32,000 bases of DNA from Candidatus Iainarchaeum sp. (GCA_030688545.1 JAUYHT010000002.1:240001-272000); one strand, 5' to 3'; shown: positions 2,349 to 31,098, counted from the stretch's first letter. Notes: generated by a model from the letters alone, not told the origin. Made by a program: numbers and translations.

Positions 2349-2455
2349 TACCCACATTCCAATTAGGGCGTTCGAAATTAGGGAAGGTTCACCGAGGCCT
2401 CCCGGCTGACTGGTATCCGTCACCCTTTGAGTCAAGGGCTAATATTTTACTGTTT

Positions 2456-3112: not shown

Positions 3113-3114
3113 AT

Positions 3115-3756: not shown

Positions 3757-3872
3757 AGATAGAACTAAACTGCCCCATCACCATCTAAATACTTATCTAG
3801 AATGTGATTAATTGACCAAATTTTTCCTATTGGAAAGGTTTACCTCATCCCCGGCCTATAAAGTCCGAACGA

Positions 3873-4634: not shown

Positions 4635-4874
4635 ACCTACTACTAGTCAAACCTCCTTAAAAAAAGGTCCAGGAAAAACCACTTGACTTGCGATTTCTAA
4701 TGATGTGACTTGCCACCCGCTTCACCATAGGTAACATCCCATCCGCTCCTATGTTTCACCCGCCCTATTTTTCACTTACTCCAATATTTTGTCCATTCCT
4801 CTGGGGGATTTGAAACCTCCACCTGAAAGGAAAAAAACGACCTTAAGGAATTCATTTAAAAAGACCAAAATTTT

Positions 4875-14275: not shown

Positions 14276-14439
14276 ATGGGTGGAATAGGTACATTTTTAC
14301 CATAGGGAAATTTTCCCCCATGAGGAAAAATTGTAGCCCACTAGAAATGGGTGGTATTGCTTTTCAGAAAGCAGGTAACCCTATATAGAACTGAGGGCCA
14401 ACTCCATATGCAAGCCCACATTTTCAGGAGGCCACCCGC

Positions 14440-14820
14440 ATGATTGGATACACCACTAATATCGAAAAGGAAACACTTGACAACACCGCTTACCGGCGCG
14501 TACTGTTCACCGGTAAAAAGATGCAATTAGTGGTGATGACGCTCAGGCCGCAGGAAGACATCCCCCTGGAGACGCACCCGGACACGGACCAATTTATTCG
14601 CGTGGAAAAAGGAGAGGCCTTGGTGAAAATAGGAAGTGAAGAGAACAAAGTGTCTGAAGACGAAATGATCATTATTCCGGCGGGGAATGCGCATTACGTG
14701 AAGAACACCTCCACGGAGGAAGATTTGAAGATCTACACCCTATATTCGCCCCCCGAACACCCGGAAGGAACGGTTCAACAAACTAAAGCGGAAGCGGATG
14801 CGGCGGAAAAGGATCATTGA
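14440..14820 (+). CDS. Cupin-domain protein
   Basis: 126-aa ORF with cupin motifs (ETHPDTDQFIRVEKGEA and IIIPAGNAHYVKN). It is preceded by a GGAGG Shine-Dalgarno sequence (14425-14429) and a TATA-like CTATATAG near 14383-14390. Confidence 0.7.
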   Translation: MIGYTTNIEKETLDNTAYRRVLFTGKKMQLVVMTLRPQEDIPLETHPDTDQFIRVEKGEALVKIGSEENKVSEDEMIIIPAGNAHYVKNTSTEEDLKIYTLYSPPEHPEGTVQQTKAEADAAEKDH

Positions 14821-14831
14821 TCAAACATCCA

Positions 14832-14944
14832 TTTGAAAAAAGGTGCACGAAAAAACAAAAAAAAAATGGGGCGGGAGAGATTCGGAACGCACCTTTTGAA
14901 AAAAGGTGCACGAAAAAACAAAAAAAAATGGGGCGGGAGAGATT
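14832..14944. repeat. Tandem duplication (two units, 63-nt period) containing the tRNA-Pro(CGG) 3' end plus its T-rich trailer
   Basis: 14832-14882 and 14895-14944 are identical except for one A in a homopolymer. Each ends with TGGGGCGGGAGAGATT, the complement of the tRNA 3' end. A 9-bp-stem hairpin (GCACCTTTT-gaa-AAAAGGTGC) lies at 14889-14909. Confidence 0.9.
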
Positions 14945-15001
14945 TGAACTCTCGTCGACACCTCCCGAAGGTGCCATCCTACCAGGCTAGACGACCGCCC
15001 C
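14929..15001 (-). tRNA. tRNA-Pro (anticodon CGG)
   Basis: The reverse complement folds as acceptor GGGGCGG/CCGCCCC, anticodon stem GCACC/GGTGT, loop TTCGGGA (G37), T-arm GAGAG-TTCAAAT-CTCTC, discriminator A. It is 73 nt. Confidence 0.9.
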
Positions 15002-16390: not shown

Positions 16391-18346
16391 ATGAATCGGG
16401 TTTTAAACTTCAAAGAATCCAAGGAATGCATGCCGGCCCCCGGAACGTTACCCACCTCTTCCACGCATCCCGTGACGTGCGGGCTGGAAGTCCACCAGCA
16501 ATTGGACACGCATAAACTCTTTTCTCGTTGCCCCAGCACCCTGCGCGAGGACGCTCCAGATTTCACCTTTTTCAGGAAGTTGCACGCGGTTGCTTCCGAG
16601 CTGGGAGAGTATGATTTGGCCGCGCTTGAAGCGGCGCGGAAGAGACAGACCTATACCTATCAAGGGCACCACGAGAACACCAGTTTGGTGGAAACGGATG
16701 AAGAACCCCCCGCCCCCATGAATGCGGAAGCCCTATGTATTGCCCTGGAGGTGGCGCTCCTCTGCCAAGCGAAGACCGTGGACAAAATAACGGTGATGAG
16801 GAAAACCGTATTGGACGGGAGCAACACTTCGGGATTCCAACGCACCGCCCTGGTATCCATGGGGGGACAACTCACGCTCACGAATGATATGCCCATCCGG
16901 GTCATGGGAATTGCCCTGGAAGAGGATTCCGCCCGCCCCATCGGACAGAAAGGGGAAGACGGGGTGTACCGCCTGGATCGGCTCGGGTTTCCCCTTATTG
17001 AACTCGCGACGTATCCGGATATCCATTCTCCCGAACAAGCCAAGGAAACCGCTCTCAAGATTGGGGAGGTGCTCCGCATCACTGGAAAGATGAAACGAGG
17101 CCTGGGAACCATTCGGCAGGATTTGAACATCTCCATCCCTGGAGGAGCGCGGGTGGAAATCAAGGGGGTGCAGGAGGTGGGGATGATCGACGAATACGTG
17201 CGGCGGGAGATGCAACGACAACAGACCCTGCTCGCCCTGAAGGACACATTAACAAAGGAAGGATTGACCAAAGATAAGGTGAACAGCCAGGGCGCCACCG
17301 ACCTTACTCTTATTTTTTCGAACACCTCCAGCCCGCTCGTGCGGAAAGCCCTGGAGAAACAGCATCATCTATGGGGGGTGCGGTTGCCCCAAATGAAGGG
17401 AAAAATGGGATTGGAAATACAACCTGGCCGACGAGTGGGAGGCGAAGTTTCATCCTATATGAAGAATAAAACCGGGTTGCAGGGCATCCTTCATGGGGAT
17501 GAGTTGCCAGCGCATGGCGTCACGGAGGAAGAAGTGAAGCAGGTTAGGGAGGCATTGCATGTTCAGGAAAAGGATAGCTTTGCTTTGGTGATGGGCCCTG
17601 AAACCAAGGCGCGATTCGCCATCGACACCATCAAGCACCGGGTGTCATTCCTCCTGGAAGGCATTCCTGAGGAAACACGGAACGCCCTGGAGGGAGGTAA
17701 CTCGGAATATTCCCGCCCCCTTCCTGGAGCGGCACGCATGTACCCGGAGACGGACGCGCAGGATATTTTCATCACCCCTTCCCTCATTGGGGATTTGAAA
17801 AACACCTTACCCGCATGGGGAGAGGATAGAAAAAAACAGTATATGCAAATGGGATTGAGCGAAAAGCACGCGGAAGAGATGAAACTGGACAACAAGGCCC
17901 GCTTTTTCGAACGCATGGTTGGAAAAGGGTATGCTCCCACCCTCACGGCCACGCTATTATTGGACACTTTCAACACCATCCGCCGAGAAAATCCCCAAGT
18001 ATCCCGACTCACGGAAGAGCAACTGGAATCCCTATTGGAAGCGGAAAAGGGAAAACAGGTGCTGCGGGACAACTTCCCCTCTATCCTACGTGAATGGGCG
18101 ATTAATCCTTCCGCCCCGCTGTCCGCTGTAATTGGGCGCCTGGGGAATGAGACAATGAAAGAGGATGAGGTAACGAAAGTCGTGAAACAGATCGTGGACA
18201 AGCACGCGCACTTGGTGCTCGCCAAAGGCATGCAAGCCCAGAAGCCCCTGATGGGGTTGTGCATGCAAGCCTTACGGGGTAAAGCCCAAGGATACTTCAT
18301 CGCTCAAGCATTGGAAAAAGAATTGCGCCAGCGAACAGGGAAATAG
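16391..18346 (+). CDS. gatE: Glutamyl-tRNA(Gln) amidotransferase subunit E
   Basis: 651-aa ORF. The N-terminal CGLEVHQQLDT motif, an AspRS-like insertion and a GatB/YqeY-like C-terminus give archaea-specific GatE architecture. The start could instead be the downstream ATG. Confidence 0.9.
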   Translation: MNRVLNFKESKECMPAPGTLPTSSTHPVTCGLEVHQQLDTHKLFSRCPSTLREDAPDFTFFRKLHAVASELGEYDLAALEAARKRQTYTYQGHHENTSLVETDEEPPAPMNAEALCIALEVALLCQAKTVDKITVMRKTVLDGSNTSGFQRTALVSMGGQLTLTNDMPIRVMGIALEEDSARPIGQKGEDGVYRLDRLGFPLIELATYPDIHSPEQAKETALKIGEVLRITGKMKRGLGTIRQDLNISIPGGARVEIKGVQEVGMIDEYVRREMQRQQTLLALKDTLTKEGLTKDKVNSQGATDLTLIFSNTSSPLVRKALEKQHHLWGVRLPQMKGKMGLEIQPGRRVGGEVSSYMKNKTGLQGILHGDELPAHGVTEEEVKQVREALHVQEKDSFALVMGPETKARFAIDTIKHRVSFLLEGIPEETRNALEGGNSEYSRPLPGAARMYPETDAQDIFITPSLIGDLKNTLPAWGEDRKKQYMQMGLSEKHAEEMKLDNKARFFERMVGKGYAPTLTATLLLDTFNTIRRENPQVSRLTEEQLESLLEAEKGKQVLRDNFPSILREWAINPSAPLSAVIGRLGNETMKEDEVTKVVKQIVDKHAHLVLAKGMQAQKPLMGLCMQALRGKAQGYFIAQALEKELRQRTGK

Positions 18347-18372
18347 GATTTTTTCATGGCTCCAGGAAAACA

Positions 18373-18819: not shown

Positions 18820-19373
18820 AAGGTTTCAAACTCCTGCGCGAACCGCGCATTCAATGCTGTGGAATGAATAACCAACACATTTTCATTATTTTCTCCCACC
18901 CCGTTACGCGACCAATTCATGGAGCCGGTGAGGACTACTGTTTGGTCGATCACCGCGAATTTGTGATGCATGTAGGAGGGGTTGGCGTCAATACGCACGG
19001 AAAGGCCAGCATCCCGAAGATTTTGGAGCTGGGAAAAAGAACCCCCTGCCTGCTGGCGCTCAAGGAGAACCCGCACCACCACGCCTCGCTCATGGGCATC
19101 CATAAGGGCTTGGGCGAGCTGGGGATGGGTAAAGGAATACATGGCCACGTCTATTTTGGATTGCGACGCATGAATGGCAGACAGGGGCAACGATTCGCAG
19201 ATAGGGGAGGGGCAGAAAGCGGATTGGATGGAATCATATTCCAAGGAGGAAGGAGTTTGAGTTGTGGGCTGGATGACTAACCCCGTGGGGGAAAAATGCG
19301 CCACGCCTACCCCCAATCCCACTCCGAAAACCAAGAGAAGAATCCCTAAAAAAACCTTGGGAGAGAGGTGCAT
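18795..19373 (-). CDS. Phospholipase D-family (Nuc-like) nuclease/phosphodiesterase with an N-terminal TM anchor
   Basis: 192-aa ORF with a single complete HKD motif, HHKFAVIDQTVVLTGSMNWS (HxK-x4-D-x6-GSxN). The N-terminal segment is hydrophobic (FLGILLLVFGVGLGVGV). A TATA-like box lies at 19396-19405. Confidence 0.8.
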   Translation of the reverse strand: MHLSPKVFLGILLLVFGVGLGVGVAHFSPTGLVIQPTTQTPSSLEYDSIQSAFCPSPICESLPLSAIHASQSKIDVAMYSFTHPQLAQALMDAHERGVVVRVLLERQQAGGSFSQLQNLRDAGLSVRIDANPSYMHHKFAVIDQTVVLTGSMNWSRNGVGENNENVLVIHSTALNARFAQEFETLWHQSENN

Positions 19374-19494
19374 GCACCCACTCCCGCAGGGGGCTCTTAA
19401 AAGGCTATTTTACAAAAAGTCATCATCCGAGGCAACCCGAATGGAGTCGTCCGCGAATAATCCATTGGAAGGAAGTTGCTATTGGGAAACGGCG

Positions 19495-19567
19495 AGCCCC
19501 GTCGTCTAGTGGTCAAGGATGTCAGGCTTTGGACCTGAAGACCGGAGTTCGAATCTCCGCGGGGCTA
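19495..19567 (+). tRNA. tRNA-Gln (anticodon TTG)
   Basis: Acceptor AGCCCCG/CGGGGCT (A1:U72, typical of archaeal tRNA-Gln), anticodon stem TCAGG/CCTGA, loop CTTTGGA, T-arm CGGAG-TTCGAAT-CTCCG, discriminator A. It is 73 nt. Confidence 0.9.
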
Positions 19568-19608
19568 TGTTGGGGTTCCTGCACCGCGGGAAACCGCACG
19601 CTTTTTCG

Positions 19609-19633
19609 CCGGCCTTTTTTCTAAAAAGGCCGG
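19609..19633 (+). terminator. Hairpin with 11-bp stem (CCGGCCTTTTT-tct-AAAAAGGCCGG), a terminator-like member of the recurring hairpin family
   Basis: Perfect inverted repeat with T6 and A5 runs, giving oligo-T on both strands. It lies downstream of tRNA-Gln. Confidence 0.5.
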
Positions 19634-19638
19634 TTCCT

Positions 19639-19655
19639 GAATCTTCGCGGGGCTA
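19639..19655 (+). repeat. Second copy of the tRNA-Gln 3' end (GAATCTTCGCGGGGCTA, 16 of 17 identical)
   Basis: Direct comparison with 19551-19567 (GAATCTCCGCGGGGCTA). Confidence 0.85.
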
Positions 19656-19675
19656 TAATCACCAAAAGCAATTTC

Positions 19676-20569
19676 TCACTCGGACATGATTTGTGTATTC
19701 TTTCTTTCTCCGTGATAAATGACTTTTTGTAGTTTCAATTTGAGCCCATATCTTTTGATTAGCTTATGGATTATTTGATTTAACTGTTCTCTATAGTTCT
19801 CGCTTTTTGAGGTATAGAATTCGGTGATTATTTTTTCACCGAGCTCTTTTGCGTCTTCTTTTAATCGTTTGAAAATATAGGGACTTAGATTGATATGTTC
19901 GACAAATATTTCTTTATTTCCGGTTTCTGCGATAGCCTTGAATAACTTATCTAGTACTATTTCTTTTGAAACAAAATGAGGCAATAAGGGCCCAATGAAT
20001 GCATAGGTTTTCACCCCTTCTTCATTCAGTTTCTTGAGTGTTTCTAATCGTTTCGATGCAGGTGGGGCATATTTCTCAAAATAGCGTGAAATCGAATCGT
20101 CAGTAGTTGTTATGGTCAAACCAACTTCCGTATGTTTTAGCTTTTTAATTAAGTCTAAGTCACGCAAGATTAGATCTGATTTTGTTAGAAAACTAACCTC
20201 TCCTTCAAAGTGGTTTTCAATTAACACTTCTAAACACTTTCGTGTTAATTGGTACTTTACTTCTAATCCTTGATAAGGATCTGTAACTGAACTAAACAAC
20301 ACGACCTTTCCTTTTCCTTTATTTTTCAGCGACAAAATTTCTTTTCTTAATAATTCCGCTGCATTCATTTTAGGATAAACATATTCTCCCCAATCAGCAA
20401 CGGATTTATCCGCAAATCGACCCATGAAACTAGCATAACAATATGAGCAAGCAAAACGACAACCCAAATAGGGGTTAACCACGTAATCCGCTGCTGGAAG
20501 TTTAGATGGGGTCAAAATAGATTTTGACTGGATTTCTTTAATCTCCATATTAGCAAATGGTCTTCCCAT
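19676..20569 (-). CDS. Radical SAM protein, SplB/DNA-photolyase-like (COG1533-type)
   Basis: 297-aa ORF with NPYLGCRFACSYCYA (CxxxCxxC) near the N-terminus. The DNA is low-GC; one 60-nt line hand-counted at about 32%. A TATA-like CAATTTAATG (minus strand, 20571-20580) fits a leaderless start at the internal ATG 20548 (MEIKEI...). Confidence 0.8.
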   Translation of the reverse strand: MGRPFANMEIKEIQSKSILTPSKLPAADYVVNPYLGCRFACSYCYASFMGRFADKSVADWGEYVYPKMNAAELLRKEILSLKNKGKGKVVLFSSVTDPYQGLEVKYQLTRKCLEVLIENHFEGEVSFLTKSDLILRDLDLIKKLKHTEVGLTITTTDDSISRYFEKYAPPASKRLETLKKLNEEGVKTYAFIGPLLPHFVSKEIVLDKLFKAIAETGNKEIFVEHINLSPYIFKRLKEDAKELGEKIITEFYTSKSENYREQLNQIIHKLIKRYGLKLKLQKVIYHGERKNTQIMSE

Positions 20570-20610
20570 ACATTAAATTGACATCCATCCCGACCTAAAA
20601 AGGCGTATCT

Positions 20611-20627
20611 GAATCTCCGCGGGGCTA
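20611..20627 (+). repeat. Third copy of the tRNA-Gln 3' end (GAATCTCCGCGGGGCTA, 17 of 17 identical)
   Basis: Exact match to 19551-19567. The upstream CTAAAAAGGC...TCT also matches the flank of copy 2 (19621-19638). Confidence 0.88.
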
Positions 20628-21677: not shown

Positions 21678-23450
21678 ATGATTCCGGGCTGGAAATACAT
21701 CCGCGCGCACCGGAAGACCCTGGCACTCGCCCTGGGCCTCGCGACCATCAACCAGGTCTTTTCCCTCCTGGATCCGCTCATTTTCCGATTCATCATCGAT
21801 GATTACGCCACCAACATCGAAACTATTCCCCCTGATGCATTTCTGTCGGGGGTGCTATTGCTATTAGCCGCTTCGGTAGGCGTGGCATTCGTCTCCCGCA
21901 CGGCCAAAACATTCCAGGAATATTACGTGAGCCTCATCACTCAAAAAGTGGGCACCACTATGTACGCCCACTCAGTGAGTCATACATTCTCCCTCCCCTA
22001 TGGGGTTTTTGAGGACCGGCGATCGGGGGAGATTTTGCAGAAGCTCCAGAAGGCGCGCACCGACACGCAAGGGGCTATCGAGAGCTTCATCGGGGTGCTC
22101 TTCCTGTCCGCGGTGGGAATTATTTTCGTTTTAGGTTACGCCTTCACCGTTCACTGGATGGTGGGCGCCGCATTCGTGACCATGATTCCTCTTCTGGGGG
22201 GATTTACTTTCATCATGTCGCAACGCATCAAGCAGGCGCAGAAGGGTATTGTCACGGAATCTGCTGAACTGGCCGGGAGCACCACCGAAACCCTGCGCAA
22301 TGTCGAATTGGTGAAGAGCATGGGATTAGAGCACCAAGAAATCACGCGCCTCAATGAGGTGAATGAACGTATTTTGGGATTGGAACTCACCAAAGTGAAG
22401 CTCGTGCGCACCCTGGCCTTTATTCAGGGAACAACGATCAACCTATTGCGCACGGGACTACTATTCCTCATGCTCTGGTTGGTTTTCCAGGGGGAAATTA
22501 CGCTCGGAGCGCTCTTCTCCTTACTCTTCTACTCCTTTTTCATATTCGGCCCCCTCTCGGATTTAGGACGCGTGGCCCAGGCCTACCAAGAGGCGAAAGC
22601 AAGCAATGAGGCCCTGGATGAAGTGTTATCCATCCCCCCTGAGGCCAAACCCGCACGACCCATCCTCATTCCCCATATCCAAACCATCGAATTCCAGGAT
22701 GTGTCATTCAAGTACGCATCCTCAACCATCCCTTCGGTAAATGGAGCCTCGTTCAAGCTGAATGCGGGGGATGTGGTGGCATTCGCGGGCGCCTCCGGGA
22801 GTGGGAAGACCACGCTCGCCAAACTCATGGTGGGGTTATACACCCCTTCCCGGGGAAAAATACTCTTCAATGGAAAGGATTCCGCGCGCGTGGATTTTGA
22901 TTCTTTACGGAAGCGAGTGGGATTGGTATCGCAGGAGACCCAATTGTTTGCCGGGACGATACGGGAAAACCTGTTGTTCGTCAACCCCCAGGCCACGGAT
23001 GAGGATTGCCTGCGGGTGTTGGAACAAGCTAATATCATGGGGATCGTGCATCGTGGGGACAAGGGGCTAGACACCAAAATAGGGGAAGGAGGCATCAAGA
23101 TTTCTGGAGGGGAACGGCAACGCCTGGCGATCGCCCGCGCCCTCCTGCGCGACCCCGATCTCATCATATTCGACGAGGCCACCTCCTCATTGGATTCCAT
23201 TTCAGAGCGGGCCATCACGCACACGATTCAAGAAATAAAAAAGAAGCGCCCTCACCTCATCTGCGTGCTCATCGCCCACCGATTATCCACCATTACCCAT
23301 GCGGACACCATATTCGTGCTCGAGCGCGGCGGCATTGAAGAGGTTGGCAACCACTCCCAATTGGTGAGGAAGAAAGGATTGTATTTTGCGTTCTGGCGCC
23401 AGCAGAGCGGGGAAATTACCTCGCCCGTCGCCGAGGCGGAGACCCTCTAG
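21678..23450 (+). CDS. ABC exporter, fused permease and ATPase (MsbA/MdlB-like)
   Basis: Six-TM N-terminal domain. Walker A is GASGSGKTT, the signature is ISGGERQR, and Walker B is LIIFDEATS. I chose the ATG at 21678 over the TTG at 21660 because the TATA-like GTTAAAAAACC (21647-21657) lies about 26 nt upstream. Confidence 0.9.
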   Translation: MIPGWKYIRAHRKTLALALGLATINQVFSLLDPLIFRFIIDDYATNIETIPPDAFLSGVLLLLAASVGVAFVSRTAKTFQEYYVSLITQKVGTTMYAHSVSHTFSLPYGVFEDRRSGEILQKLQKARTDTQGAIESFIGVLFLSAVGIIFVLGYAFTVHWMVGAAFVTMIPLLGGFTFIMSQRIKQAQKGIVTESAELAGSTTETLRNVELVKSMGLEHQEITRLNEVNERILGLELTKVKLVRTLAFIQGTTINLLRTGLLFLMLWLVFQGEITLGALFSLLFYSFFIFGPLSDLGRVAQAYQEAKASNEALDEVLSIPPEAKPARPILIPHIQTIEFQDVSFKYASSTIPSVNGASFKLNAGDVVAFAGASGSGKTTLAKLMVGLYTPSRGKILFNGKDSARVDFDSLRKRVGLVSQETQLFAGTIRENLLFVNPQATDEDCLRVLEQANIMGIVHRGDKGLDTKIGEGGIKISGGERQRLAIARALLRDPDLIIFDEATSSLDSISERAITHTIQEIKKKRPHLICVLIAHRLSTITHADTIFVLERGGIEEVGNHSQLVRKKGLYFAFWRQQSGEITSPVAEAETL

Positions 23451-24354
23451 GGGTACGCCGCGGGGCAGTATTTCCCGCGCGCTTACGCCATACTGAGGGG
23501 GGTAGGGGGCGCTTGCTATTCCCCGTTGAAACTTTTCGCTGTTGACGTCGGCGGCCTAATCCAAAAAAGGTGAAATTGATTCCGGCCGACAACTCCCACT
23601 TATTGGTCTTATCATCATATACCGGCGTAATAAACAGGAAATGCCTTCCATCTTTGCCTAAACCATATGAAAATTGGTTAATGTAATCCTGCAGCCCAAC
23701 ATGATAGGCCACATCCCACGTCACGCGCCCCCGTTCCAAGGATGAACCTACCCGCCAATTATCATTCCCGTCCCAACCGCGTTCAACGTATCCAATCACT
23801 GTTGTTCCGGCAAATTCTCCAAAAGAGTGTTCCAGATTGAGGATACCGGTTTTCAATGGCTTGGTTGGGTCCATTGATAAGGTGAATTGAGTGTTTTTGT
23901 TTACTTTTAACCTACCCGCCAATTCCTTGGATAGCGCATCCCTCACGAAAGTGGTGCCTCCACCCACTGTTACTTTTCCACCTGCGAATTCGCGAGCCAC
24001 CCCAGCTAAAAACTGGGTCATCTCAGGTTCCCGATTGTCAGGGATCGCCCCAATATGCCAACCATAATTACCATTTCCCAAGCGGCCCCAGGTGCCTAAA
24101 AATGGATTCAATTGAATGCTATGGTCCTGCTTTCGGGTGGCCCCCAGAATGAGGAAGCTGGTTGGGTTGAATTCTTCAGGAGGAATAAACGTGTGAACTC
24201 CTGCGGTAAAATCCTTCATTGGAGGAAATCGCCAGATGGGTTTCTTATCCCCTTGTTTTGGAGATAACGCGGTGCACGCGCTTAATACCAAAACTCCAAG
24301 CAACTGGATTTTCGGTAAAAATTGATTTTTGCTAGGTAAGGGTTTGCGCGCCAT
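23416..24354 (-). CDS. Putative lipoprotein with beta-strand-rich (barrel-like) body and an Arg-rich C-terminal tail
   Basis: I chose the start at MARKPL (24354) over 24432, which would cross the promoter. The lipobox-like sequence is LVLSAC. The body has alternating-hydrophobicity strands and the mature part ends in INFTFFGLG. The 3' end overlaps the ABC gene by 35 nt. Confidence 0.55.
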   Translation of the reverse strand: MARKPLPSKNQFLPKIQLLGVLVLSACTALSPKQGDKKPIWRFPPMKDFTAGVHTFIPPEEFNPTSFLILGATRKQDHSIQLNPFLGTWGRLGNGNYGWHIGAIPDNREPEMTQFLAGVAREFAGGKVTVGGGTTFVRDALSKELAGRLKVNKNTQFTLSMDPTKPLKTGILNLEHSFGEFAGTTVIGYVERGWDGNDNWRVGSSLERGRVTWDVAYHVGLQDYINQFSYGLGKDGRHFLFITPVYDDKTNKWELSAGINFTFFGLGRRRQQRKVSTGNSKRPLPPSVWRKRAGNTAPRRTPRGSPPRRRAR

Positions 24355-24377
24355 GCCACGAGTACTCCCCCCCCCCC

Positions 24378-24387
24378 TTTTAAATTT
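24378..24387. promoter_or_regulatory. Shared, near-symmetric TATA box (TTTTAAATTT) for two divergent genes
   Basis: Centred about 25 nt from the pepF ATG (24408) and about 29 nt from the lipoprotein ATG (24354). A C11 tract at 24367-24377 abuts it. Confidence 0.5.
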
Positions 24388-24407
24388 GTTCGCAATGGCG
24401 GTGATAC

Positions 24408-26156
24408 ATGCCCCCCGAAACCCTCCCCACATGGGATTTGAAAACCCTTTTTTTGAATGACACTAAACTTGAGGAAGCCATCTCGGAACTTAGGAAAGAA
24501 GGCCGGGAATTCCAGAAATACCGAAATATGCTCCCGAAGGCAACCCCCGCGCTGATAGAGGAGATCCTCCGGAGGAAAGAACGGATGTCCACTATTGGCA
24601 GCCGTATTGGGGGGTACAGCAATATGCTGTTTTCGACCAACACGACAGATGAAAAGGTCAAGGCCCTCGAATCCCGTTTATCCCTCATGGGGGCGGAAGT
24701 TGGAAATCAGACCATGTTCTTCGGGTTGTGGTGGATGGGATTGCCTAAAGAAAAGGCCCAGGCGCTGTTGCCCAAAAATCCCGAATACCGTCACACCCTC
24801 CTGGAGATGCGCAAGTTCTCCCCACACATGCTTAGCGAGAAGGAAGAACAACTGGCCAACCTCAAAGATACCACGGGAGAAGAAGCATTAGTGAAGCTCT
24901 ATGACATCATCACCAATGAATTCACGTTTCCTTGGGAAAAGGAAGGGAAAACCGTGATGGTTCCTGAAGAGGAAATCCGCGCTTACATCAAACACCCTAA
25001 TCCAAAATATCGGGTGAGGGCCTATCAGCGGCTGTGGGAAACCTATGGCGCTCATAACCCGGTGCTGGGAGAAATTTATAGAAACCTCGTCCTGGATGTA
25101 TGGAATGAGAATGTGGGGTTGAGGAAATACGAACGCCCCATCAGCGCCCGCAACCTGGGAAACAACCTCACGGACAAGATGGTGGATACCTTCCTGGGGG
25201 TGTGCCGGAAAAATACTAAAATATTCCAGGATTATTTCCAATGGAAAACAAAAGAATTAGGAGTAGACTACTCCCGTTATCATATTTATGCGCCCCTCCC
25301 CCAACCGGAGAAAAAATGGGGATTCGAGGAGGGCTATAAACACGTCATGGCGGCCTACCGCGGTTTCTCTCCCCGCATGGAAAAAGAAGCGCACCGCGTT
25401 CTAACCCAAAATCGAATGGATGTCCCCATCCGAAAGGGAAAACGGGGAGGCGCGTATTGCGCCGGCATTACTCCAGAGGAAACCAGTTTTGTCCTCCTGA
25501 ATTGGGCAGGGAATTATACCGATGTCTCCACCCTCGCCCACGAATTGGGTCACGCAGTGCACAATCACCTTTCCTCCTCCCACAGTATTCTCAACCATCA
25601 TGCCCCCCTTCCATTGGCAGAAACCGCCTCCACCTTTGGAGAAATGCTTTTGGCGGATAGGATGATGGAACAGAATAAGGAGGAAGGATTCACTCGCTAT
25701 ATGCTCGCGCACCAGGTGGACGACGCCTATGCTTCCATCCCCCGACAGGCCTTTTTCAGCCTATTCGAGATGGAAGCCTTTGACTTGATACGGGAGGGGA
25801 AGACCATCCCGGATATTCATGACGCCTATAAGAAAAACCTGCAGGAACAATTGGGAAGCATGCACCTCCCTGAAAACGTGTCGAATGAATGGACGATGAT
25901 CCAGCATTTCTTTCATTACCCTTTCTATGTGTACGCGTACGCCTTCGGACAATTGCTCGTGTACGCGCTCTGGGAAATGTACCAGGAGGAAGGAAAATCC
26001 TTCGTCCCGCGATATGAAACATTCCTATCCTATGGCGGGAGCGAGGACCCGGAAAAAATGCTCCTCGAAATAGGATTCGACCCCAACAAAAAGGCGAGCT
26101 GGCAGAAAGGATTCGACCTATTGGAAGCCAAAGTGAAAAAGCTGAAGGCGCTCTAA
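24408..26156 (+). CDS. pepF: Oligoendopeptidase F (M3B metallopeptidase)
   Basis: 582-aa ORF with the HExxH zinc site HELGHAVH. Length and flanking motifs are typical of PepF. Confidence 0.9.
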   Translation: MPPETLPTWDLKTLFLNDTKLEEAISELRKEGREFQKYRNMLPKATPALIEEILRRKERMSTIGSRIGGYSNMLFSTNTTDEKVKALESRLSLMGAEVGNQTMFFGLWWMGLPKEKAQALLPKNPEYRHTLLEMRKFSPHMLSEKEEQLANLKDTTGEEALVKLYDIITNEFTFPWEKEGKTVMVPEEEIRAYIKHPNPKYRVRAYQRLWETYGAHNPVLGEIYRNLVLDVWNENVGLRKYERPISARNLGNNLTDKMVDTFLGVCRKNTKIFQDYFQWKTKELGVDYSRYHIYAPLPQPEKKWGFEEGYKHVMAAYRGFSPRMEKEAHRVLTQNRMDVPIRKGKRGGAYCAGITPEETSFVLLNWAGNYTDVSTLAHELGHAVHNHLSSSHSILNHHAPLPLAETASTFGEMLLADRMMEQNKEEGFTRYMLAHQVDDAYASIPRQAFFSLFEMEAFDLIREGKTIPDIHDAYKKNLQEQLGSMHLPENVSNEWTMIQHFFHYPFYVYAYAFGQLLVYALWEMYQEEGKSFVPRYETFLSYGGSEDPEKMLLEIGFDPNKKASWQKGFDLLEAKVKKLKAL

Positions 26157-26165
26157 CTCCAAACC

Positions 26166-26296
26166 AAACTTTTTTAGAAAAAAAGTTTGATCAAAAGAAA
26201 CTTTTTAAAAAAAAGTTTCATCAAAAAACGAACCTTTTTTAGGAAAAAAAGTTTCATCAAAAGAAACTTTTTAGAAAAAAGTTTCATCAAAAAAAC
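26166..26296. repeat. Four tandem ~32-33-nt units, each an AAACTTTTT-loop-AAAAAGTTT hairpin followed by (G/C)ATCAAAA
   Basis: Hairpins lie at 26166-26188, 26198-26218, 26231-26254 and 26264-26284, between convergent pepF and the 26342 methyltransferase. There are oligo-T runs on both strands. Confidence 0.85.
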
Positions 26297-27806: not shown

Positions 27807-28742
27807 TCAAATCGCGGCCAGTGTCATCTCTTGGACGTGCGACAAATCCTTTCCCGCCATGACCCTCATACGATGGGATTTAATATGCGGAAGGCCGGAG
27901 AGCATGCCAGAAACCTGGGCCTTGATGTCAATTAAATCCGTATTAGGGTGCGCCTGGCAAAGTTGGAAATAGCGCGCCAACAATTCCCGTTTGGAGGGAA
28001 TGGGATTGCCAACGATTTCCCTGAACAATTCAGGGCGGTTCCACGCCGACCGACCGAGCATGACGAGATCGCAATAGCCGTTATCCAGTTTCTCCCGCAC
28101 CCCCTGCGCGGTGCGCACATCCCCATTTCCGATGAGGGGAATGGAAACTAGGGATTTGATGCGCTTAATATATTCCCAATCCGCAGCTCCAGAATAACCC
28201 TGCTGGGCGGTACGCGCATGAAGGGCAATGCCCTGCACTCCCACCTCCTCAATCTTTTTAACAAAGGAATGCAATACTGGCTTATCCCACCCCATGCGCA
28301 TCTTGCAGGTGACCGGTTTTTTAGAAACGGAAACCGCCGCTTTAATGAGCGAAATCAGTTTGTCAGGATCTTTCAACAAATATGCCCCACACCCACCCCC
28401 CGTAATTTTGGGGGAAGGACAACCAAAATTGATATCCACCAAATCGAAATCCTTTTCGACAAAATCGATGGCCGTGCACAAATCCTTTTCCTCGGGGGCG
28501 AACAATTGCACCCCTACTGGGTGTTCCTCCCTCACGGTGCGAATCCGATTAAACACTTTGTTGTTGGAGGCCGTGCCATTCATGTTTCGTGTAATAGCCA
28601 TGGCGGACGCAAACTCCGTGTAAGTTAATCCCGCCCCCAGCTCTTTGCAAAGCAGGCGGAAAGGAAGAGTGGAAACCCCCGACATGGGGGCCAACACGGC
28701 CGGACTTTCAAGGGAGAGGCCGGCGTAGGAAGTGGAGGGCAT
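27807..28742 (-). CDS. tRNA-dihydrouridine synthase (Dus family)
   Basis: 311-aa ORF with the DINFGCPSPKI motif (catalytic Cys region) and a TIM-barrel FMN-binding pattern. A TATA-like CCTTTAAAAGC at 28765-28775 is centred about 28 nt upstream. Confidence 0.87.
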   Translation of the reverse strand: MPSTSYAGLSLESPAVLAPMSGVSTLPFRLLCKELGAGLTYTEFASAMAITRNMNGTASNNKVFNRIRTVREEHPVGVQLFAPEEKDLCTAIDFVEKDFDLVDINFGCPSPKITGGGCGAYLLKDPDKLISLIKAAVSVSKKPVTCKMRMGWDKPVLHSFVKKIEEVGVQGIALHARTAQQGYSGAADWEYIKRIKSLVSIPLIGNGDVRTAQGVREKLDNGYCDLVMLGRSAWNRPELFREIVGNPIPSKRELLARYFQLCQAHPNTDLIDIKAQVSGMLSGLPHIKSHRMRVMAGKDLSHVQEMTLAAI

Positions 28743-28876
28743 ACGATTTGCCCCCGCGGAAGAGCCTTTAAAAGCATTCTTTATGGCAGATTAGAAAGCG
28801 AGATAAGTGTGCGAAGATATGGGTTCCTAGAAAGGAAACCTAACGCTTTTTCGCCATCCTTTTCCGCAAAAAGGTT

Positions 28877-28950
28877 GCACCGGTAGCTTAGCCTGGTAGA
28901 GCACCCGACTGATAATCGGGAGGTCGGAGGTTCAAATCCTCCCCGGTGCA
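28877..28950 (+). tRNA. tRNA-Ile (anticodon GAT)
   Basis: Acceptor GCACCGG/CCGGTGC, D-arm GCTT-AGCCTGGTA-GAGC, anticodon stem CCCGA/TCGGG, loop CTGATAA, T-arm GGAGG-TTCAAAT-CCTCC, discriminator A. It is 74 nt. Confidence 0.92.
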
Positions 28951-29066
28951 TACACCGTTCCATCGGTGTGGTGCGGTATAGAAAGATTGTTTCAACACCC
29001 CTCAGCTGGCCATTTTCTTTGACTGGGCGCTACTTTCTTTTCTTAAAAGAAAGGAGTGCGTTCCCG

Positions 29067-29084
29067 AATCCTCCCCGGTGCATA
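29067..29084 (+). repeat. Second copy of the tRNA-Ile 3' end (AATCCTCCCCGGTGCATA, 18 of 18 identical to 28935-28952)
   Basis: Exact direct repeat. It is preceded by the hairpin CTTTCTTTT-ctt-AAAAGAAAG (29033-29053). Confidence 0.88.
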
Positions 29085-29147
29085 AACAGTTTCGGCTGCT
29101 TGGTGCGAGAGACTGCACCGAGGGGGTTAGGAGAACCCCCACAGACC

Positions 29148-29459
29148 CTACTTTTTTTTCTTCTTCCTCTCTGCATCTTTTTTACGATTAATAGACCGCA
29201 AATCACTTACACTTTGTCTCATGTCATTTGAACTAAAAATGCGTTTAATAGAAGAAGAATCGACATTGTATAACAGACTTAAACCCCTATTTGCACCGAC
29301 AAGATCTACAAACTCTTGGGCTTTCTCCCAACCAACAATTTTGATAAACCTCCAGGCAACTTCATGACCACCAACAATATTGCTTCCGCTAGAAAATTTG
29401 CCATAATCTATTGCTCGCTCAGTATACTCACGTGTTTCACTCCGTATCTTTGCGCTCAC
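29148..29459 (-). CDS. Hypothetical protein (GTG start, Lys-rich C-terminus)
   Basis: 103-aa ORF in low-GC DNA. There is no ATG start and no recognisable motif. It may be a gene remnant. Confidence 0.3.
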   Translation of the reverse strand: MSAKIRSETREYTERAIDYGKFSSGSNIVGGHEVAWRFIKIVGWEKAQEFVDLVGANRGLSLLYNVDSSSIKRIFSSNDMRQSVSDLRSINRKKDAERKKKKK

Positions 29460-29735
29460 TTGTTCACGTCTGGCATCCGCTTAAGGCCTTTCCCTACCCA
29501 AGTGATCCCCTGTACTTCCGGTGTAACCGCTTGTTTCCCGCGAACTGGGGCTGGATCGAAATCGGTGCCTCTTTCCCACCACGTCTGAGAAATCCAATTA
29601 TGTTTTTTTAAGATTACCTAGAACCCTCGGTGGACTAACAGATAACGAGTTCGAGTCCCCTAAACCCGTAGAAACTTCACCATTAAGTATCACCCTCTTC
29701 AGTATTTTTGGATTTGAGTAACAACGGAACTACTA

Positions 29736-29840
29736 TTATCACCACACCCCTAAAGAGAAAAAGTGGTGATAACTCGCCCCTGTAGCGGACCCACCTCACA
29801 AGTTATCACCACATTTTATAAAGTGTTTTGTGGTGATAAC
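29736..29840. promoter_or_regulatory. Two copies of the palindromic operator TTATCACCAC-N17-GTGGTGATAA, the second enclosing the Fic TATA box
   Basis: Half-sites lie at 29736-29745 and 29763-29772, and at 29803-29812 and 29830-29839. Both spacers are exactly 17 nt. The TATA-like TTTTATAAAG (29814-29823) sits in the second spacer, about 26 nt upstream of the ATG at 29845. Confidence 0.65.
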
Positions 29841-29844
29841 ATTT

Positions 29845-30789
29845 ATGGGCTCGATTATTTCCAGGAAAGTAAAAGGAAAGGAATATTTCTACATTGAACA
29901 AACCATCCGCATTGGGAAAAAATACCAGAAAATATCTGTTTATCTCGGAAACCAGAAACCCCTCACGAGCGAGCTGCCAATATTTAAAAAGAAGCTTCAA
30001 AAACGAGTCAACGCGTTTTACTCGAATGAATTATTGAAGCCTGAAACGAGCTATGTTAATATAGCTGCTGCCAAAAAGCTGGAAACGATCAAACAAGAAA
30101 CTAACACATTTATAGAAAATTTAAACAGCATTCAAAAAAAACATTGGATTGAAAGGGAGCGAGAAAGGTTCATCACCAATACAAATGCAATTGAAGGAAG
30201 CACACTCACGCTTAACGAAACACATCGCATACTTAAGTTAGATGAAAAAATAGGAACGGAGAGAGAACGTTTGGAAGTTTTGAATATGGAGAAATGCCTC
30301 CAACGTTATGACCAATACTTGAAAATCAACCAGGAATTAAACGAAAAAATGGTTCTGCAACTCCACTATATCTTATTGGATAAAATTCCTCATTACGATC
30401 AATACAAGGGGATCTGGAGACCGGTTGATGTTGAAATTCGAACAAGCCAATTTGAATTCCCCCATTTTCAATATGTTCCGGGAGAAATGAGGAAATTATT
30501 TGAGTGGTATTATGAAAAGAAAGATCGAATACACCCGCTGGAGTTGGCTGCCGTCTTTCATTGCCAATTTACAACCATTCACCCATTTGCAGATGGAAAT
30601 GGCAGAATCTCACGGCTACTTATGAACTACATCCTTCAATATGCACAGTTTCCTTTCACTAACATCCCTTATTCCAAACAAAAGGAATACTTTGAAACCC
30701 AAGAAAAAGGACATCACTCCCAATACCAACTATTCACTCAATTTCTTATTAAACAATTACAACAAAATTACCGAGAAATCAAAAAGTAG
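29845..30789 (+). CDS. Fic-domain protein (class II, intramolecular inhibitory motif)
   Basis: The Fic motif HPFADGNGRISR is canonical. The N-terminal TNAIEG matches the (S/T)xxxE(G/N) inhibitory helix. I chose the ATG at 29845 over the GTG at 29830. The DNA is low-GC; one line hand-counted at about 33%. Confidence 0.87.
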   Translation: MGSIISRKVKGKEYFYIEQTIRIGKKYQKISVYLGNQKPLTSELPIFKKKLQKRVNAFYSNELLKPETSYVNIAAAKKLETIKQETNTFIENLNSIQKKHWIERERERFITNTNAIEGSTLTLNETHRILKLDEKIGTERERLEVLNMEKCLQRYDQYLKINQELNEKMVLQLHYILLDKIPHYDQYKGIWRPVDVEIRTSQFEFPHFQYVPGEMRKLFEWYYEKKDRIHPLELAAVFHCQFTTIHPFADGNGRISRLLMNYILQYAQFPFTNIPYSKQKEYFETQEKGHHSQYQLFTQFLIKQLQQNYREIKK

Positions 30790-30882
30790 ATAAAACACGC
30801 GAGACGGATTTGAACTGGTTTCCTGAGGGCCTTCGGCGGGCTTTGGGCCGAGCTTTTTCGCAAAAAGGGCAGTATCGACTCA

Positions 30883-30893
30883 TCCCCGGTGCA
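30883..30893 (+). repeat. Degenerate third copy of the tRNA-Ile 3' end (TCCCCGGTGCA)
   Basis: An 11-nt exact match to 28940-28950. Extended, ATCGACTCATCCCCGGTGCA matches the tRNA T-arm/acceptor (TTCAAATCCTCCCCGGTGCA) at about 15 of 20 positions. Confidence 0.5.
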
Positions 30894-31033
30894 CTTTCAC
30901 TTTTAGAAATGACTTCCCCCGGCCTAAAGACTGATAGGGCCATGAAGAAAAATGTCAATTGGCTCGCGCAATTGTTCACCAAACAAGATGAGATGAACAG
31001 TCGCCCTATTTGAGGGGGTTATCTACCTTTTTG

Positions 31034-31060
31034 ATCGAACTTTTTTCTAAAAAGTTCGAT
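31034..31060 (+). terminator. Hairpin with 12-bp stem (ATCGAACTTTTT-tct-AAAAAGTTCGAT), same core as 19609-19633
   Basis: Perfect inverted repeat. The 15-nt core CTTTTTTCTAAAAAG is identical to 19614-19628. Confidence 0.5.
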
Positions 31061-31098
31061 GAACCCTAATAAAGCCTTCTGGCCCAGTAGTATCGTTC

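What the first reader, a model, noticed from the sequence alone, without database searches (positions are those of the whole stretch)
19572..19655. Conserved non-coding module with compensatory hairpin changes, associated with tRNA ends at three loci
Seen in sequence, first comparison: 19572-19633 and 28821-28874 share ordered blocks. These are GGGTTCCT, loop, GGAAACC, NN, ACGCTTTTTCGCC (13 of 13 identical), NN, CCTTTT, loop, AAAAAGG. A looser version occurs at 30817-30867.

Second comparison: the second half aligns with the reverse complement of 14883-14920. That is TTTTTCG, stem, TTTTTTC(T), AAAA(A)GG, stem, GTTCC(T)GAATCT. The outer stem differs (CCGG/CCGG versus GTGCA/TGC) but pairing is preserved.

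Third comparison: the extra tRNA-end copies at all three tRNAs are preceded by a T-loop-like word carrying an insertion, GTTCC(N)GAATC. The forms are Gln GTTCCTGAATC, Pro GTTCCGAATC and Ile GTTCCCGAATC. The parent tRNAs instead have GTTCGAATC or GTTCAAATC. The copies therefore resemble one another in this segment more than they resemble their parent tRNAs.

Inference: a common element end, or a small structured RNA or protein-binding module, is joined to tRNA-specific 12-17-nt tails. It could be a MITE-like insertion that targets the universally conserved T-loop. Alternatively it could be a promoter/terminator cassette, since at 28821 it sits directly upstream of an intact tRNA-Ile.
Basis: seen in the sequence. 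Interest (0 to 1): 0.65.

Follow-up and report, generated by a model that had tools for sequence, protein, structure and literature searches.

The report
Mini elements inserted at tRNA ends
The conserved hairpin module is the arm of small DNA pieces, some empty and some carrying one gene, inserted behind tRNA genes of a DPANN archaeon, each flanked by a copy of the tRNA's last 16 bases; this is a familiar kind of event in an unusually small form with no integrase gene found nearby.

Summary
tRNA-Gln, tRNA-Pro(CGG) and tRNA-Ile are each followed by extra copies of tRNA positions 58-73 (16 nt). Each copy is preceded by a T-run/A-run hairpin and a T-loop-like word, GTTC+Y(1-2)+G. The window comes from a Candidatus Diapherotrites (DPANN) genome.

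Syntenic relatives show the same architecture at 12 of 22 tRNA genes examined. Homologous 46-190-nt elements sit at different tRNAs in different genomes. The identity block starts sharply at A58 in most junctions.

Some intervals hold only the two conserved arms. The left arm is a hairpin plus oligo-T; the right arm is a T5-N3-A5 palindrome plus the T-loop-like word. Other intervals hold one gene (radical SAM, Fic, a kinase, a HAD hydrolase). I found no integrase or transposase gene.

My best reading (0.45) is that these are att-type junctions of small tRNA-targeting integrative elements and their cargo-less derivatives, moved in trans, with arms that act as oligo-T terminators. Rivals are a MITE-like transposon making a 16-bp target duplication, local tandem duplication, and a promoter/terminator module. 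The last fits the copy flush upstream of tRNA-Ile. This is a new variant of a known kind, of moderate interest.

The parts
19495..19567 (+). tRNA-Gln(UUG), intact. Its last 16 nt (19552-19567, AATCTCCGCGGGGCTA, positions 58-73) form tail copy 1.
   Evidence: ARAGORN; Rfam 63.8 bits; sequence
19568..19639 (+).
   Evidence: (fold z = -2.85)
19640..19655 (+). Gln tail copy 2 (AATCTTCGCGGGGCTA), 15 of 16 identical to the tRNA.
   Evidence: (family D4)
19656..20611 (.). One-gene interval at Gln (E1). It carries a radical SAM / SPL-like ORF at 19676-20569 (-). The right end is TTGAC..CCTAAAAAGGCGTATCTG.
   Evidence: Pfam PF04055, E = 3e-16; absent from syntenic relatives; sequence
20612..20627 (+). 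Gln tail copy 3 (AATCTCCGCGGGGCTA), 16 of 16 identical. Weak homology to the tRNA runs back to the anticodon stem (27 of 36).
   Evidence: (D4)
14929..15001 (-). tRNA-Pro(CGG), intact. Tail copy 1 is 14929-14944.
14883..14928 (-). Mini-element at Pro (46 nt): T9-G-T6, then the hairpin GCACCTTTT-TTC-AAAAGGTGC, then GTTCCG.
   Evidence: z = -3.74; covariance model hit, E = 2.6e-4
14867..14882 (-). Pro tail copy 2, 16 of 16 identical. It is followed by a repeat of the next 30 nt of the tRNA's downstream flank.
   Evidence: (D1, D6)
28821..28876 (+). Module B: the same hairpin 1, the 13-mer and an H2 palindrome. Here it lies flush upstream of the complete tRNA-Ile. The T5 run is at -30 to -26 and AAAAAGG at -9 to -3 relative to tRNA position 1.
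28877..28950 (+). tRNA-Ile(GAU), intact. Tail copy 1 is 28935-28950.
   Evidence: Rfam 75.1 bits
28951..29066 (+). Cargo-less mini-element at Ile (E2, 116 nt). The left arm has hairpins and a T-run. The right arm is TTTGAC + the palindrome CTACTTTCTTTT-CTT-AAAAGAAAGGAG + TGCGTTCCCG.
   Evidence: covariance model 103.9 bits, though this is a training sequence
29067..29082 (+). Ile tail copy 2, 16 of 16 identical.
   Evidence: (D8, D9)
29083..30877 (.). Interval at Ile (E1) carrying Fic. The left arm is paralogous to that of E2: 17 of 25 matches at its start, then hairpin GGGGGTT-AGGAG-AACCCCC (29122-29140) and T8 (29152-29159). The Fic/DOC ORF is 29830-30789 (+) and there is an unknown ORF at 29148-29459 (-). 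The right arm (30817-30877) holds the palindrome GCTTTTTCGCAAAAAGG and ends in GCAGTATCG.
30878..30893 (+). Ile tail copy 3 (ACTCATCCCCGGTGCA), 14 of 16 identical. The same variant and the same left flank occur in relative L009.
   Evidence: (D9)

Best explanation
The module is not a free-standing gene. It is the pair of arms of small DNA segments inserted site-specifically at the T-loop / 3' end of tRNA genes.

**How the insertion works.** Each segment brings its own copy of tRNA positions 58-73, which keeps the tRNA whole. The previous tail is pushed downstream. Repeated insertions therefore give arrays of the form tRNA | element | tail | element | tail.

**Anatomy of an element.**
- The left arm follows position 73. 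It is a GGGTT..AACCC-type hairpin plus an oligo-T run that ends the tRNA transcript.
- The right arm is a T5-N3-A5 palindrome with oligo-T on both strands. It is followed by GYGTTC-Y(1-2)-G, a T-loop look-alike that is the element's half of the recombination site.
- Between the arms there is either one gene (radical SAM, Fic) or nothing. The pieces at 19568-19639, 28951-29066 and 14883-14928 are cargo-less derivatives.

**Shown here.**
- The repeats and their sharp A58 boundary.
- The conserved arms.
- Homology of elements across different tRNAs and genomes.
- The variable cargo.

**Inferred.**
- The joining is done by a recombinase (most simply a tyrosine integrase of the tRNA-3'-end / T-loop type) encoded elsewhere and acting in trans.
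- The T-runs work as archaeal terminators.
For: **1. Five extra tails in the window, each at a sharp boundary.** Identity to the parent tRNA is 14-16 of 16 from A58 to N73 and collapses at position 57. The same boundary is seen in L009, L059, L011 and in distant DPANN loci L012, L018 and L036.

**2. Displaced terminators.** The outermost tail is often followed by the oligo-T run expected of the displaced original terminator: Pro T10, L018 T8, L009-Ile T8.

**3. Foreign cargo.** Genes between tails are absent from syntenic relatives and differ between genomes: radical SAM, Fic, an AAA_33 kinase in L009 and a HAD hydrolase in L018. Fic homologues in relatives are not next to tRNAs.

**4. Cargo-less and cargo-bearing elements share arms.** In the window's Ile locus the two adjacent elements have paralogous left arms and equivalent right arms.

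**5. Elements are homologous across tRNAs and genomes.**
- L010-Pro, L059-Pro and L008-Ile are related; L008-Ile and L010-Pro share an exact 21-mer.
- L009-Pro matches the window's Ile element.
- A covariance model built from five copies recovers the window Pro element and the L011 Pro element. All 7 significant hits in 678 kb abut tRNA 3' ends.

**6. Shared variant tail.** The window's Ile tail 3 and the L009 Ile tail share both the variant CATCCCCGGTGCA and the flank AAAAGG(G)CAGTWTC. The tail therefore appears to travel with the element end.

**7. Precedent.** Direct repeats made of a tRNA 3' segment are the standard mark of integrase-mediated insertion. The T stem-loop and the 3' end are recognised target regions in archaea (PMC8371274; PMC9897764).
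Against: - I found no integrase, transposase or Cas1 in the window (Pfam and NCBIfam), in the intervals checked in relatives, or in the precomputed Pfam lists of the related loci.
- One element family at three different tRNAs requires repeated swapping of the carried tail. An att model does not explain that simply.
- At Pro (window, L011) the duplication runs 30-45 nt past the tRNA end. At L010-Gln two tails are only 3 nt apart. Both look more like local duplication or an excision footprint.
- The same module flush upstream of complete tRNAs is not predicted by insertion at the 3' end. Cases are the window's Ile and the Pro genes of L010, L011, L060 and L062.
- No circular or free form was found in viral, phage or plasmid collections.
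Confidence: 0.45

Rival explanations
1. A MITE-like, non-autonomous transposable element that targets the tRNA T-loop. It inserts just after position 73 with a staggered cut at 57/58, so that positions 58-73 are duplicated as a 16-bp target-site duplication. The element itself carries no tail. Its conserved right end, GTTC-Y-G, mimics the sequence to the left of the cut.
For: - The same element family occurs at Pro, Ile and Gln without any need to swap tails.
- The duplicated block has a constant start at A58 and a near-constant length of 16-17 nt in more than 10 junctions, including distant lineages.
- The tail-3 nt-tail arrangement at L010-Gln looks like an excision footprint.
- No integrase lies nearby.
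- Palindromic units also appear as a discrete insertion inside another element (L059 against L010).
Against: - No terminal inverted repeats and no transposase were found.
- I know of no transposon family that makes 16-bp duplications. Casposons make 14-15 bp, of which only the last 4 bp of the tRNA are included (PMC6977970).
- At the window's Ile locus the 16-nt tail is perfect while the next 25 nt are only 68% identical. That fits related left arms better than a longer target duplication.
- The shared variant tail plus flank in the window and L009 suggests the tail belongs to the element end.
Confidence: 0.2
2. There is no mobile element. The T-run/A-run palindromes are the normal terminator and promoter furniture of tRNA genes in this lineage. 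The extra tails are leftovers of local tandem duplications of [tRNA 3' part + flank], made by slippage or unequal exchange at tRNA genes and followed by decay and later gene shuffling.
For: - At Pro in the window and in L011, the repeated unit includes the tail plus 30-45 nt of downstream flank, including half of the palindrome.
- Tandem copies of such palindromes exist away from tRNAs, at 26163-26290.
- The same palindrome type sits flush upstream of complete tRNAs in five cases.
- Palindromes are concentrated within about 200 nt of tRNA genes or tail copies (about 17 of 26 non-coding ones, my count).
- L013 has tRNA-Gln halves separated by such palindromes.
Against: - The change is always exactly at position 57 while the tail stays near-perfect. 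This marks a junction, not decay.
- The R-copies of Pro and Ile carry G57 where the parent has A57.
- Elements at different tRNAs in different genomes are homologous over more than 100 nt.
- Whole foreign genes lie between tails.
Confidence: 0.15
3. The module is a functional transcription cassette or small RNA. Either it is a portable promoter that starts transcription at its right end, driving tRNA-Ile at 28877 and a short tail-led RNA at 19632. Or it is a structured RNA matured by tRNA-processing enzymes.
For: - In module B the T5 run lies at -30 to -26 and an A-rich stretch at -9 to -3, with T/G at -1/+1. This is the layout of an archaeal promoter (my inference).
- A promoter further upstream would have to read through T5 and T4 runs.
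- L062 differs from L030 by a roughly 41-66-nt indel that places a palindrome module between the old TATA box and tRNA-Pro.
- The hairpins are kept through compensatory changes.
Against: - The canonical TATA boxes seen here read TTTAAAAG or TTTTTAAG, not CTTTTTCG.
- In several flush copies the T-run is too close to position 1.
- The elements contain T5-T8 runs that should stop archaeal RNA polymerase, so a full-length RNA is unlikely.
- No Rfam family matches.
- This reading does not explain the duplicated tails.
Confidence: 0.1

Closest known systems
Genomic islands and integrated elements in tRNA genes, inserted by tyrosine integrases targeting the T-loop or 3' end (for example Pyrococcus PYG1, SSV and pTN3-type elements, P4-like islands)
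   Same: - An intact tRNA followed by direct repeats of its 3' segment.
- Tandem arrays at one tRNA.
- Variable foreign cargo.
- The displaced tail keeps the original terminator.
   Different: - The elements are 46-1800 bp, against the usual 5-100 kb.
- No integrase gene lies inside or beside them.
- The identity block is only 16 nt.
- One element family is found at three different tRNAs.
- The arm next to the tail is a conserved palindrome plus a T-loop look-alike.
CIMEs (cis-mobilisable elements): att-flanked, integrase-less derivatives of integrative elements, described in Streptococcus (my own knowledge)
   Same: - Flanked by att-type repeats.
- No recombinase of their own.
- Found in tandem with related elements.
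- Thought to be moved in trans.
   Different: - CIMEs are several kilobases long and bacterial.
- Their partner ICE is known. Here no autonomous partner has been seen.
MITEs and REP/BIME-type palindromic repeats
   Same: - Short, non-coding and hairpin-rich.
- Multiple diverged copies in intergenic DNA.
- Nested insertion of palindromic units (L059 against L010).
   Different: - No terminal inverted repeats.
- No short fixed target duplication.
- Strict association with tRNA ends, with a 16-nt tRNA-specific repeat.
Casposons (Cas1-dependent transposons that insert at tRNA 3' ends)
   Same: - Archaeal.
[quoted passage not shown]
- A long duplication flanks the insert.
   Different: - The casposon duplication is 14-15 bp and overlaps only the last 4 bp of the tRNA (PMC6977970).
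- Casposons have terminal inverted repeats and carry cas1 and polB. None of these is present here.
Integron gene cassettes
   Same: - Arrays of single-gene units.
- Each unit ends in a hairpin-forming recombination site.
- New units are added next to a fixed anchor.
   Different: - The anchor is a tRNA T-loop, not attI.
- There is no IntI.
- The hairpin is not an attC (no R''/L''-L'/R' boxes).
- A 16-nt direct repeat separates the units.

Membership tests
tRNA-targeting integrative element (tyrosine-integrase att junctions) | An intact tRNA gene plus one or more direct repeats of its 3' segment that bound the inserted DNA | tested here: met
   Five extra tails of 14-16/16 identity at three tRNAs
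tRNA-targeting integrative element (tyrosine-integrase att junctions) | Inserted DNA is foreign or variable compared with related genomes | tested here: met
   The radical SAM and Fic intervals are absent from syntenic L008 and L009. Other genomes carry different cargo at the same tRNAs.
tRNA-targeting integrative element (tyrosine-integrase att junctions) | An integrase gene inside the element, usually next to one att site | tested here: not met
   No Phage_integrase or other recombinase domain in any window ORF tested, or in the intervals of L018, L036 and L059-L061. None appears in the precomputed Pfam lists of related loci.
tRNA-targeting integrative element (tyrosine-integrase att junctions) | Excised circular form with a single attP (right arm - tail - left arm) | not testable with these tools
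   This needs read-level data from SRR13727534 or the rest of the genome. Exact-pattern scans of viral contigs found nothing real.
MITE | Terminal inverted repeats and a short fixed target-site duplication | tested here: not met
   Left and right ends share only direct GTTYC words. The flanking repeat is 16 nt and tRNA-specific.
MITE | Many dispersed copies in one genome, plus a related autonomous element | tested here: inconclusive
   Only 32 kb of this genome is readable. The scan of species-representative genomes gave only chance hits. Copies are seen in 7 or more related genomes, but always at tRNAs.
Casposon | cas1 (casposase) and polB, terminal inverted repeats, 14-15-bp duplication | tested here: not met
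   No such genes. The duplication is 16 nt and lies wholly inside the tRNA (compared with PMC6977970).
Known structured RNA family (Rfam) | A match to a curated covariance model | tested here: not met
   Only the four tRNAs reach gathering score. With permissive thresholds nothing credible overlaps the modules.
Archaeal oligo-T terminator | A run of 5 or more T on the transcribed strand directly after the gene | tested here: met
   T5-T10 runs follow tail 1 or lie in the left arm at Pro, Gln and Ile. The palindromes give T-runs on both strands. Function was not tested.

The most novel reading that the evidence does not exclude
DPANN archaea may carry a so far undescribed cassette system anchored on the tRNA T-loop. 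In this reading, tiny elements with structured arms insert between positions 57 and 58 with a precise 16-nt duplication (A58-N73). They can sit at any tRNA, because recognition rests on the universal GTTCRAATC word. They also deliver single genes, in the way an integron does. The enzyme would be encoded elsewhere and would not be a classical linked integrase.
Probability: 0.2. Interest if true: 0.75.

Novelty: new variant of a known kind. Interest (0 to 1): 0.5.

Why it matters
- Mobile DNA of DPANN archaea is almost unknown. Here about half of the tRNA genes sampled in one Diapherotrites clade carry these small insertions, so they may be a major route by which these reduced genomes gain and shuffle single genes (Fic, radical SAM, kinases, hydrolases).
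- The very sharp A58 junction and the T-loop look-alike at the element end give a concrete site to test with candidate recombinases.
- For annotation, the extra tails and palindromes break short-read assemblies (the identical Logan contigs break inside them) and could be mistaken for tRNA pseudogenes or small RNAs.

Tried and rejected
**Searches that found nothing useful**
- An exact-pattern scan of the species-representative genome collection for GAAACCNNACGCTTTTTCGCC gave four chance hits in bacteria. The source genome is not in that collection.
- Six exact-pattern scans of viral contigs gave nothing, or hits inside coding sequence with no hairpin and no tRNA. The patterns covered the element right end, left arm, module A/B and attP-type tails.
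- BLASTN of the elements against phage and plasmid collections gave no match.
- Rfam, at gathering and at permissive thresholds, matched nothing but tRNAs.
- A recombinase search with Pfam and NCBIfam on 30 or more ORFs of the window and related loci found none. The 338-aa unknown ORF is a Kelch-like propeller.

**Tests that came out negative or unusable**
- I tested whether the Fic gene travels as a tRNA-linked cassette. Its closest homologues (57-64% identity) lie away from tRNAs in two relatives.
- A covariance model of the palindrome alone failed: the alignment gave no consensus pairs. I replaced it with hairpin scans and a model of whole elements.

**Ideas considered and dropped**
- tRNA intron or BHB splicing: the junctions are same-sense, so no helix can form.
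- IS200/IS605 or IS91-type insertion: these make no duplication.
- C/D-box small RNA: no consistent boxes.
- Bridge-RNA or guide-RNA homing: the duplicated tail is not explained.
- The 22-mer shared between 7032-7053 and 30798-30819 is at chance level.

Full report
**Source and setting**

The window encodes GatE, so it is archaeal. Its GatE is 100% identical to a protein named as from a Candidatus Diapherotrites (DPANN) metagenome-assembled genome, on a 418,565-bp contig. Short contigs from SRR13727534 and GCA_034375545.1 are identical to the window. The two Logan contigs break inside the repeats discussed here, at 14899, 19630, 26265 and 31057.

The window holds four tRNA genes:
- Pro(GGG) at 2276-2348
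- Pro(CGG) at 14929-15001 (-)
- Gln(UUG) at 19495-19567
- Ile(GAU) at 28877-28950

None encodes CCA.

**Checking the observation**

The flagged stretch follows tRNA-Gln directly. The sequence reads: tRNA...GTTCGAATCTCCGCGGGGCTA | 72 nt | AATCTTCGCGGGGCTA.

The 72 nt contain three features:
- GGTTCC-loop-GGAAACC
- the word ACGCTTTTTCGCC
- an 11-bp-stem palindrome, CCGGCCTTTTT-TCT-AAAAAGGCCGG

They end in GGTTCCTG.

The copy at 28821-28874 is clearly homologous. Its alignment score is 55, against 13.5 +/- 5.4 in shuffles (0 of 2000 reach it). The 13-mer is unique to the two sites. The first hairpin motif has 2 matches against 0.03 expected.

The second half of the module, with its tail, also aligns significantly with the reverse complement of the Pro locus (0 of 2000). 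The 'looser' copy at 30817-30867 is not significant by alignment (113 of 2000) but occupies the equivalent position.

The T-loop-like words with an inserted base are exactly as described. The combined pattern (A-run, GTWYC, GAMTC) occurs 4 times against 0.01 expected.

Gln has a third at 20612-20627 and Ile a third at 30878-30893.

**Anatomy**

All tails are the same piece of the tRNA: positions 58-73, 16 nt. I aligned each extra copy to its parent. Identity is 14-16 of 16 from A58 onward and falls to chance immediately to the left. Where the parent has A57 (Pro, Ile), the copy has G. One or two pyrimidines are inserted after C56, giving GTTC-C-G, GTTC-CC-G, GTTC-CT-G and GTTC-T-G. The change is therefore a junction and not random decay.

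The intervals between tails are of two kinds.

*Three intervals are non-coding:*
- 46 nt at Pro
- 72 nt at Gln
- 116 nt at Ile

*Two intervals carry genes:*
- a radical SAM / SPL-like ORF at 19676-20569 (-)
- a Fic/DOC ORF at 29830-30789 (+), plus a small unknown ORF

At Ile the two adjacent intervals have paralogous left arms. They share 17 of 25 matches at the start, then a GGGTT..AACCC-type hairpin followed by a T-run (T8 at 29152-29159 in the Fic interval). Their right arms are equivalent: a T-run/A-run palindrome, then the T-loop-like word. The non-coding intervals therefore look like cargo-less versions of the gene-carrying ones.

**Relatives**

GatE homologues of 63-68% identity led to nine syntenic loci (L008-L011, L030, L059-L062). 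These hold the same Pro, Gln and Ile genes.

Of 22 tRNA genes that can be assessed in this clade, 12 carry at least one extra tail. The right ends are the same family. For example:
- L009-Pro: ...TTTTTGACCGGGCGCGACTTTTTCTTTTAAAGAAAAAGGGGTGCGTTCTG|AATC
- window-Ile: ...CTTTGACTGGGCGCTACTTTCTTTTCTTAAAAGAAAGGAGTGCGTTCCCG|AATC

Whole elements are homologous between tRNA-Pro of L010 and L059 and tRNA-Ile of L008. L008-Ile and L010-Pro share an exact 21-mer, TTTCGATTGGACCAACCGAGA (alignment).

A covariance model built from five such elements found the window's Pro element (E = 2.6e-4) and the L011 Pro element (E = 1.8e-4), neither of which was used to build it. All seven significant hits in 678 kb of related DNA abut the 3' end of a tRNA gene.

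More distant DPANN loci show the same junction:
- L012-Gln (GTTCTGAATC + tail)
- L018-Gln, where a promoter plus a HAD hydrolase gene sits between the tRNA and a 16-nt tail followed by T8
- L036-Arg

The genes between tails are absent from syntenic relatives and differ from genome to genome. L009 has an AAA_33 kinase gene at tRNA-Ile. Fic homologues in two relatives lie far from any tRNA.

**The hairpins**

Twenty copies of the second hairpin, from the window and relatives, all fold with a T-run/A-run core. Their outer stems differ: GCCGGCC, GCACC, GCGCC, GAACC, CAAGC, GATCGAAC and others. The three non-T:A pairs next to the core take 8 different forms across 19 copies. They pair fully within a copy but only 60% when arms are swapped between copies. 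The consensus fold of five whole elements keeps 13 pairs, 3 of them with two-sided changes.

It is also what a family of DNA palindromes shows, and it does not require an RNA.

These palindromes are not general gene terminators. In about 180 kb of clade DNA, roughly 17 of 26 non-coding ones lie within about 200 nt of a tRNA gene or tail copy (my count). The exceptions in the window are 26163-26290 (four in tandem), 31031-31063, 14308-14332 and 18351-18370.

The palindromes also occur flush upstream of complete tRNAs. Module B at tRNA-Ile is one case. The tRNA-Pro genes of L010, L011, L060 and L062 are others, whereas L030 and L061 lack the palindrome. In L059 a pair of such units is inserted inside an element that L010 has without them.

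**What it most likely is**

The facts fit the classical picture of insertion into a tRNA gene by site-specific recombination:
- an intact tRNA
- a stack of direct repeats of its 3' segment
- foreign and variable DNA between them
- the oligo-T run of the original terminator after the outermost tail (T10 at Pro, T8 in L018 and at L009-Ile)

In that picture the element supplies the part of the tRNA downstream of the crossover and displaces the old part (PMC8371274; PMC9897764).

The conserved module is then the region around the element's attachment site:
- The left arm gives the regenerated tRNA a terminator.
- The right arm is a two-way oligo-T block plus a T-loop look-alike, which would be the element's half-site.
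- The 72-nt piece at 19568-19639 is an element reduced to its two arms.

One further observation supports the tail being part of the element end. The window's Ile tail 3 and the L009 Ile tail share both a variant tail (CATCCCCGGTGCA) and the flank AAAAGG(G)CAGTWTC.

The recombinase step and the terminator function are inferred, not shown.

**What does not fit, and the rivals**

No recombinase gene was found in the window or near any related site. One element family at three tRNAs would need repeated tail swapping. A transposon-like element that makes a 16-bp target duplication explains that more simply. It also fits the tail-3 nt-tail arrangement at L010-Gln. But there are no inverted termini, and I know of no family with such a duplication. 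Casposons make 14-15 bp and include only the last 4 bp of the tRNA (PMC6977970).

At Pro (window and L011) the repeat extends 30-45 nt beyond the tRNA, into half of the palindrome. That looks like local tandem duplication.

The copies flush upstream of complete tRNAs are not explained by insertion at the 3' end. In module B the T5 run lies at -30 to -26 and an A-rich stretch at -9 to -3. A promoter role is therefore possible there, and a promoter further upstream would have to read through T5. However, the clear TATA boxes of this clade read TTTAAAAG or TTTTTAAG.

A free-standing structured RNA is unlikely. Rfam gives no match and T5-T8 runs lie inside the elements.

**Verdict**

The choice between a MITE and the attachment-site arms of small integrative elements stays open.

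I favour the attachment-site reading at 0.45. The rivals stand at:
- transposon with a 16-bp duplication: 0.20
- local duplication of tRNA flanks: 0.15
- transcription cassette or RNA: 0.10

This is a new variant of a known kind: very small, integrase-less, tRNA-anchored elements and one-gene cassettes in DPANN archaea. Interest is moderate (0.5). It would be higher if the elements prove to be moved by something other than a classical integrase.

Noticed in passing
L013:16910-17176 (- strand); JGI contig Ga0209541_10002389: A split or permuted tRNA-Gln(UUG) in a distant DPANN relative. The 3' half (positions 38-73, 17125-17159) lies 177 nt upstream of the 5' half (positions 1-37, 16910-16947). 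The leader of the 3' half (TTCTCCTGAGAA) pairs over 12 bp with the trailer of the 5' half (TTCTTGGGAGAA). The joined halves give a perfect cloverleaf. ARAGORN and Rfam both miss it. T-run/A-run palindromes follow the 3' half and sit just upstream of the 5' half.
   Followed up: partly
window 26163-26290: Four tandem T-run/A-run palindromes with a 66-nt period lie between the convergent M3 peptidase and methyltransferase genes. One arm (26265-26293) is 93% complementary to 31028-31056, and the identical Logan contig L001 ends at exactly these two places.
   Followed up: partly
window 2349-4700: A low-GC block (0.41 against about 0.52) directly after tRNA-Pro(GGG) carries HAD hydrolase, GNAT acetyltransferase and methyltransferase genes, all on the minus strand. 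No clear copy of this tRNA's tail was found, so an old insertion is possible but unproven.
   Followed up: partly
window 23416-24432 (-): A 338-aa ORF with Kelch-like beta-propeller repeats lies between the ABC transporter and the M3 peptidase genes. These two genes are adjacent in relative L008. There is no Pfam or NCBIfam hit; PDB matches are to Kelch repeat proteins.
   Followed up: partly
window 14440-14820; L009:8116-8493; L008:14764-15117; L061:15314-15688: A small cupin gene lies next to tRNA-Pro in the window and in L009. In L008 and L061 it lies in the variable region downstream of tRNA-Gln. Single genes therefore seem to move between tRNA-adjacent regions.
   Followed up: no
L010:5758-5810 and L008:12732-12845: Directly after tRNA-Gln there are degenerate extra tails with almost no spacer. 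L010 reads tail, TTT, ATCGCCACGGGACT; L008 reads TCGAATCTTGCC.... A further decayed tail lies just before the helicase gene in both genomes.
   Followed up: partly
window 29760-29845; L066:170-230 and 1330-1385: The Fic gene has a conserved upstream region with repeated GTGGTGATAAC-type words around a CATTTTATA box. The same layout occurs in Fic paralogues of a relative. It looks like an operator for autoregulation.
   Followed up: no
window 28742-28775 and 19373-19405: The Dus and PLD-like genes have a TTTAAAAG-type box centred about 26 nt upstream of their start codons. This suggests leaderless mRNAs and shows what the canonical TATA box of this organism looks like.
   Followed up: no
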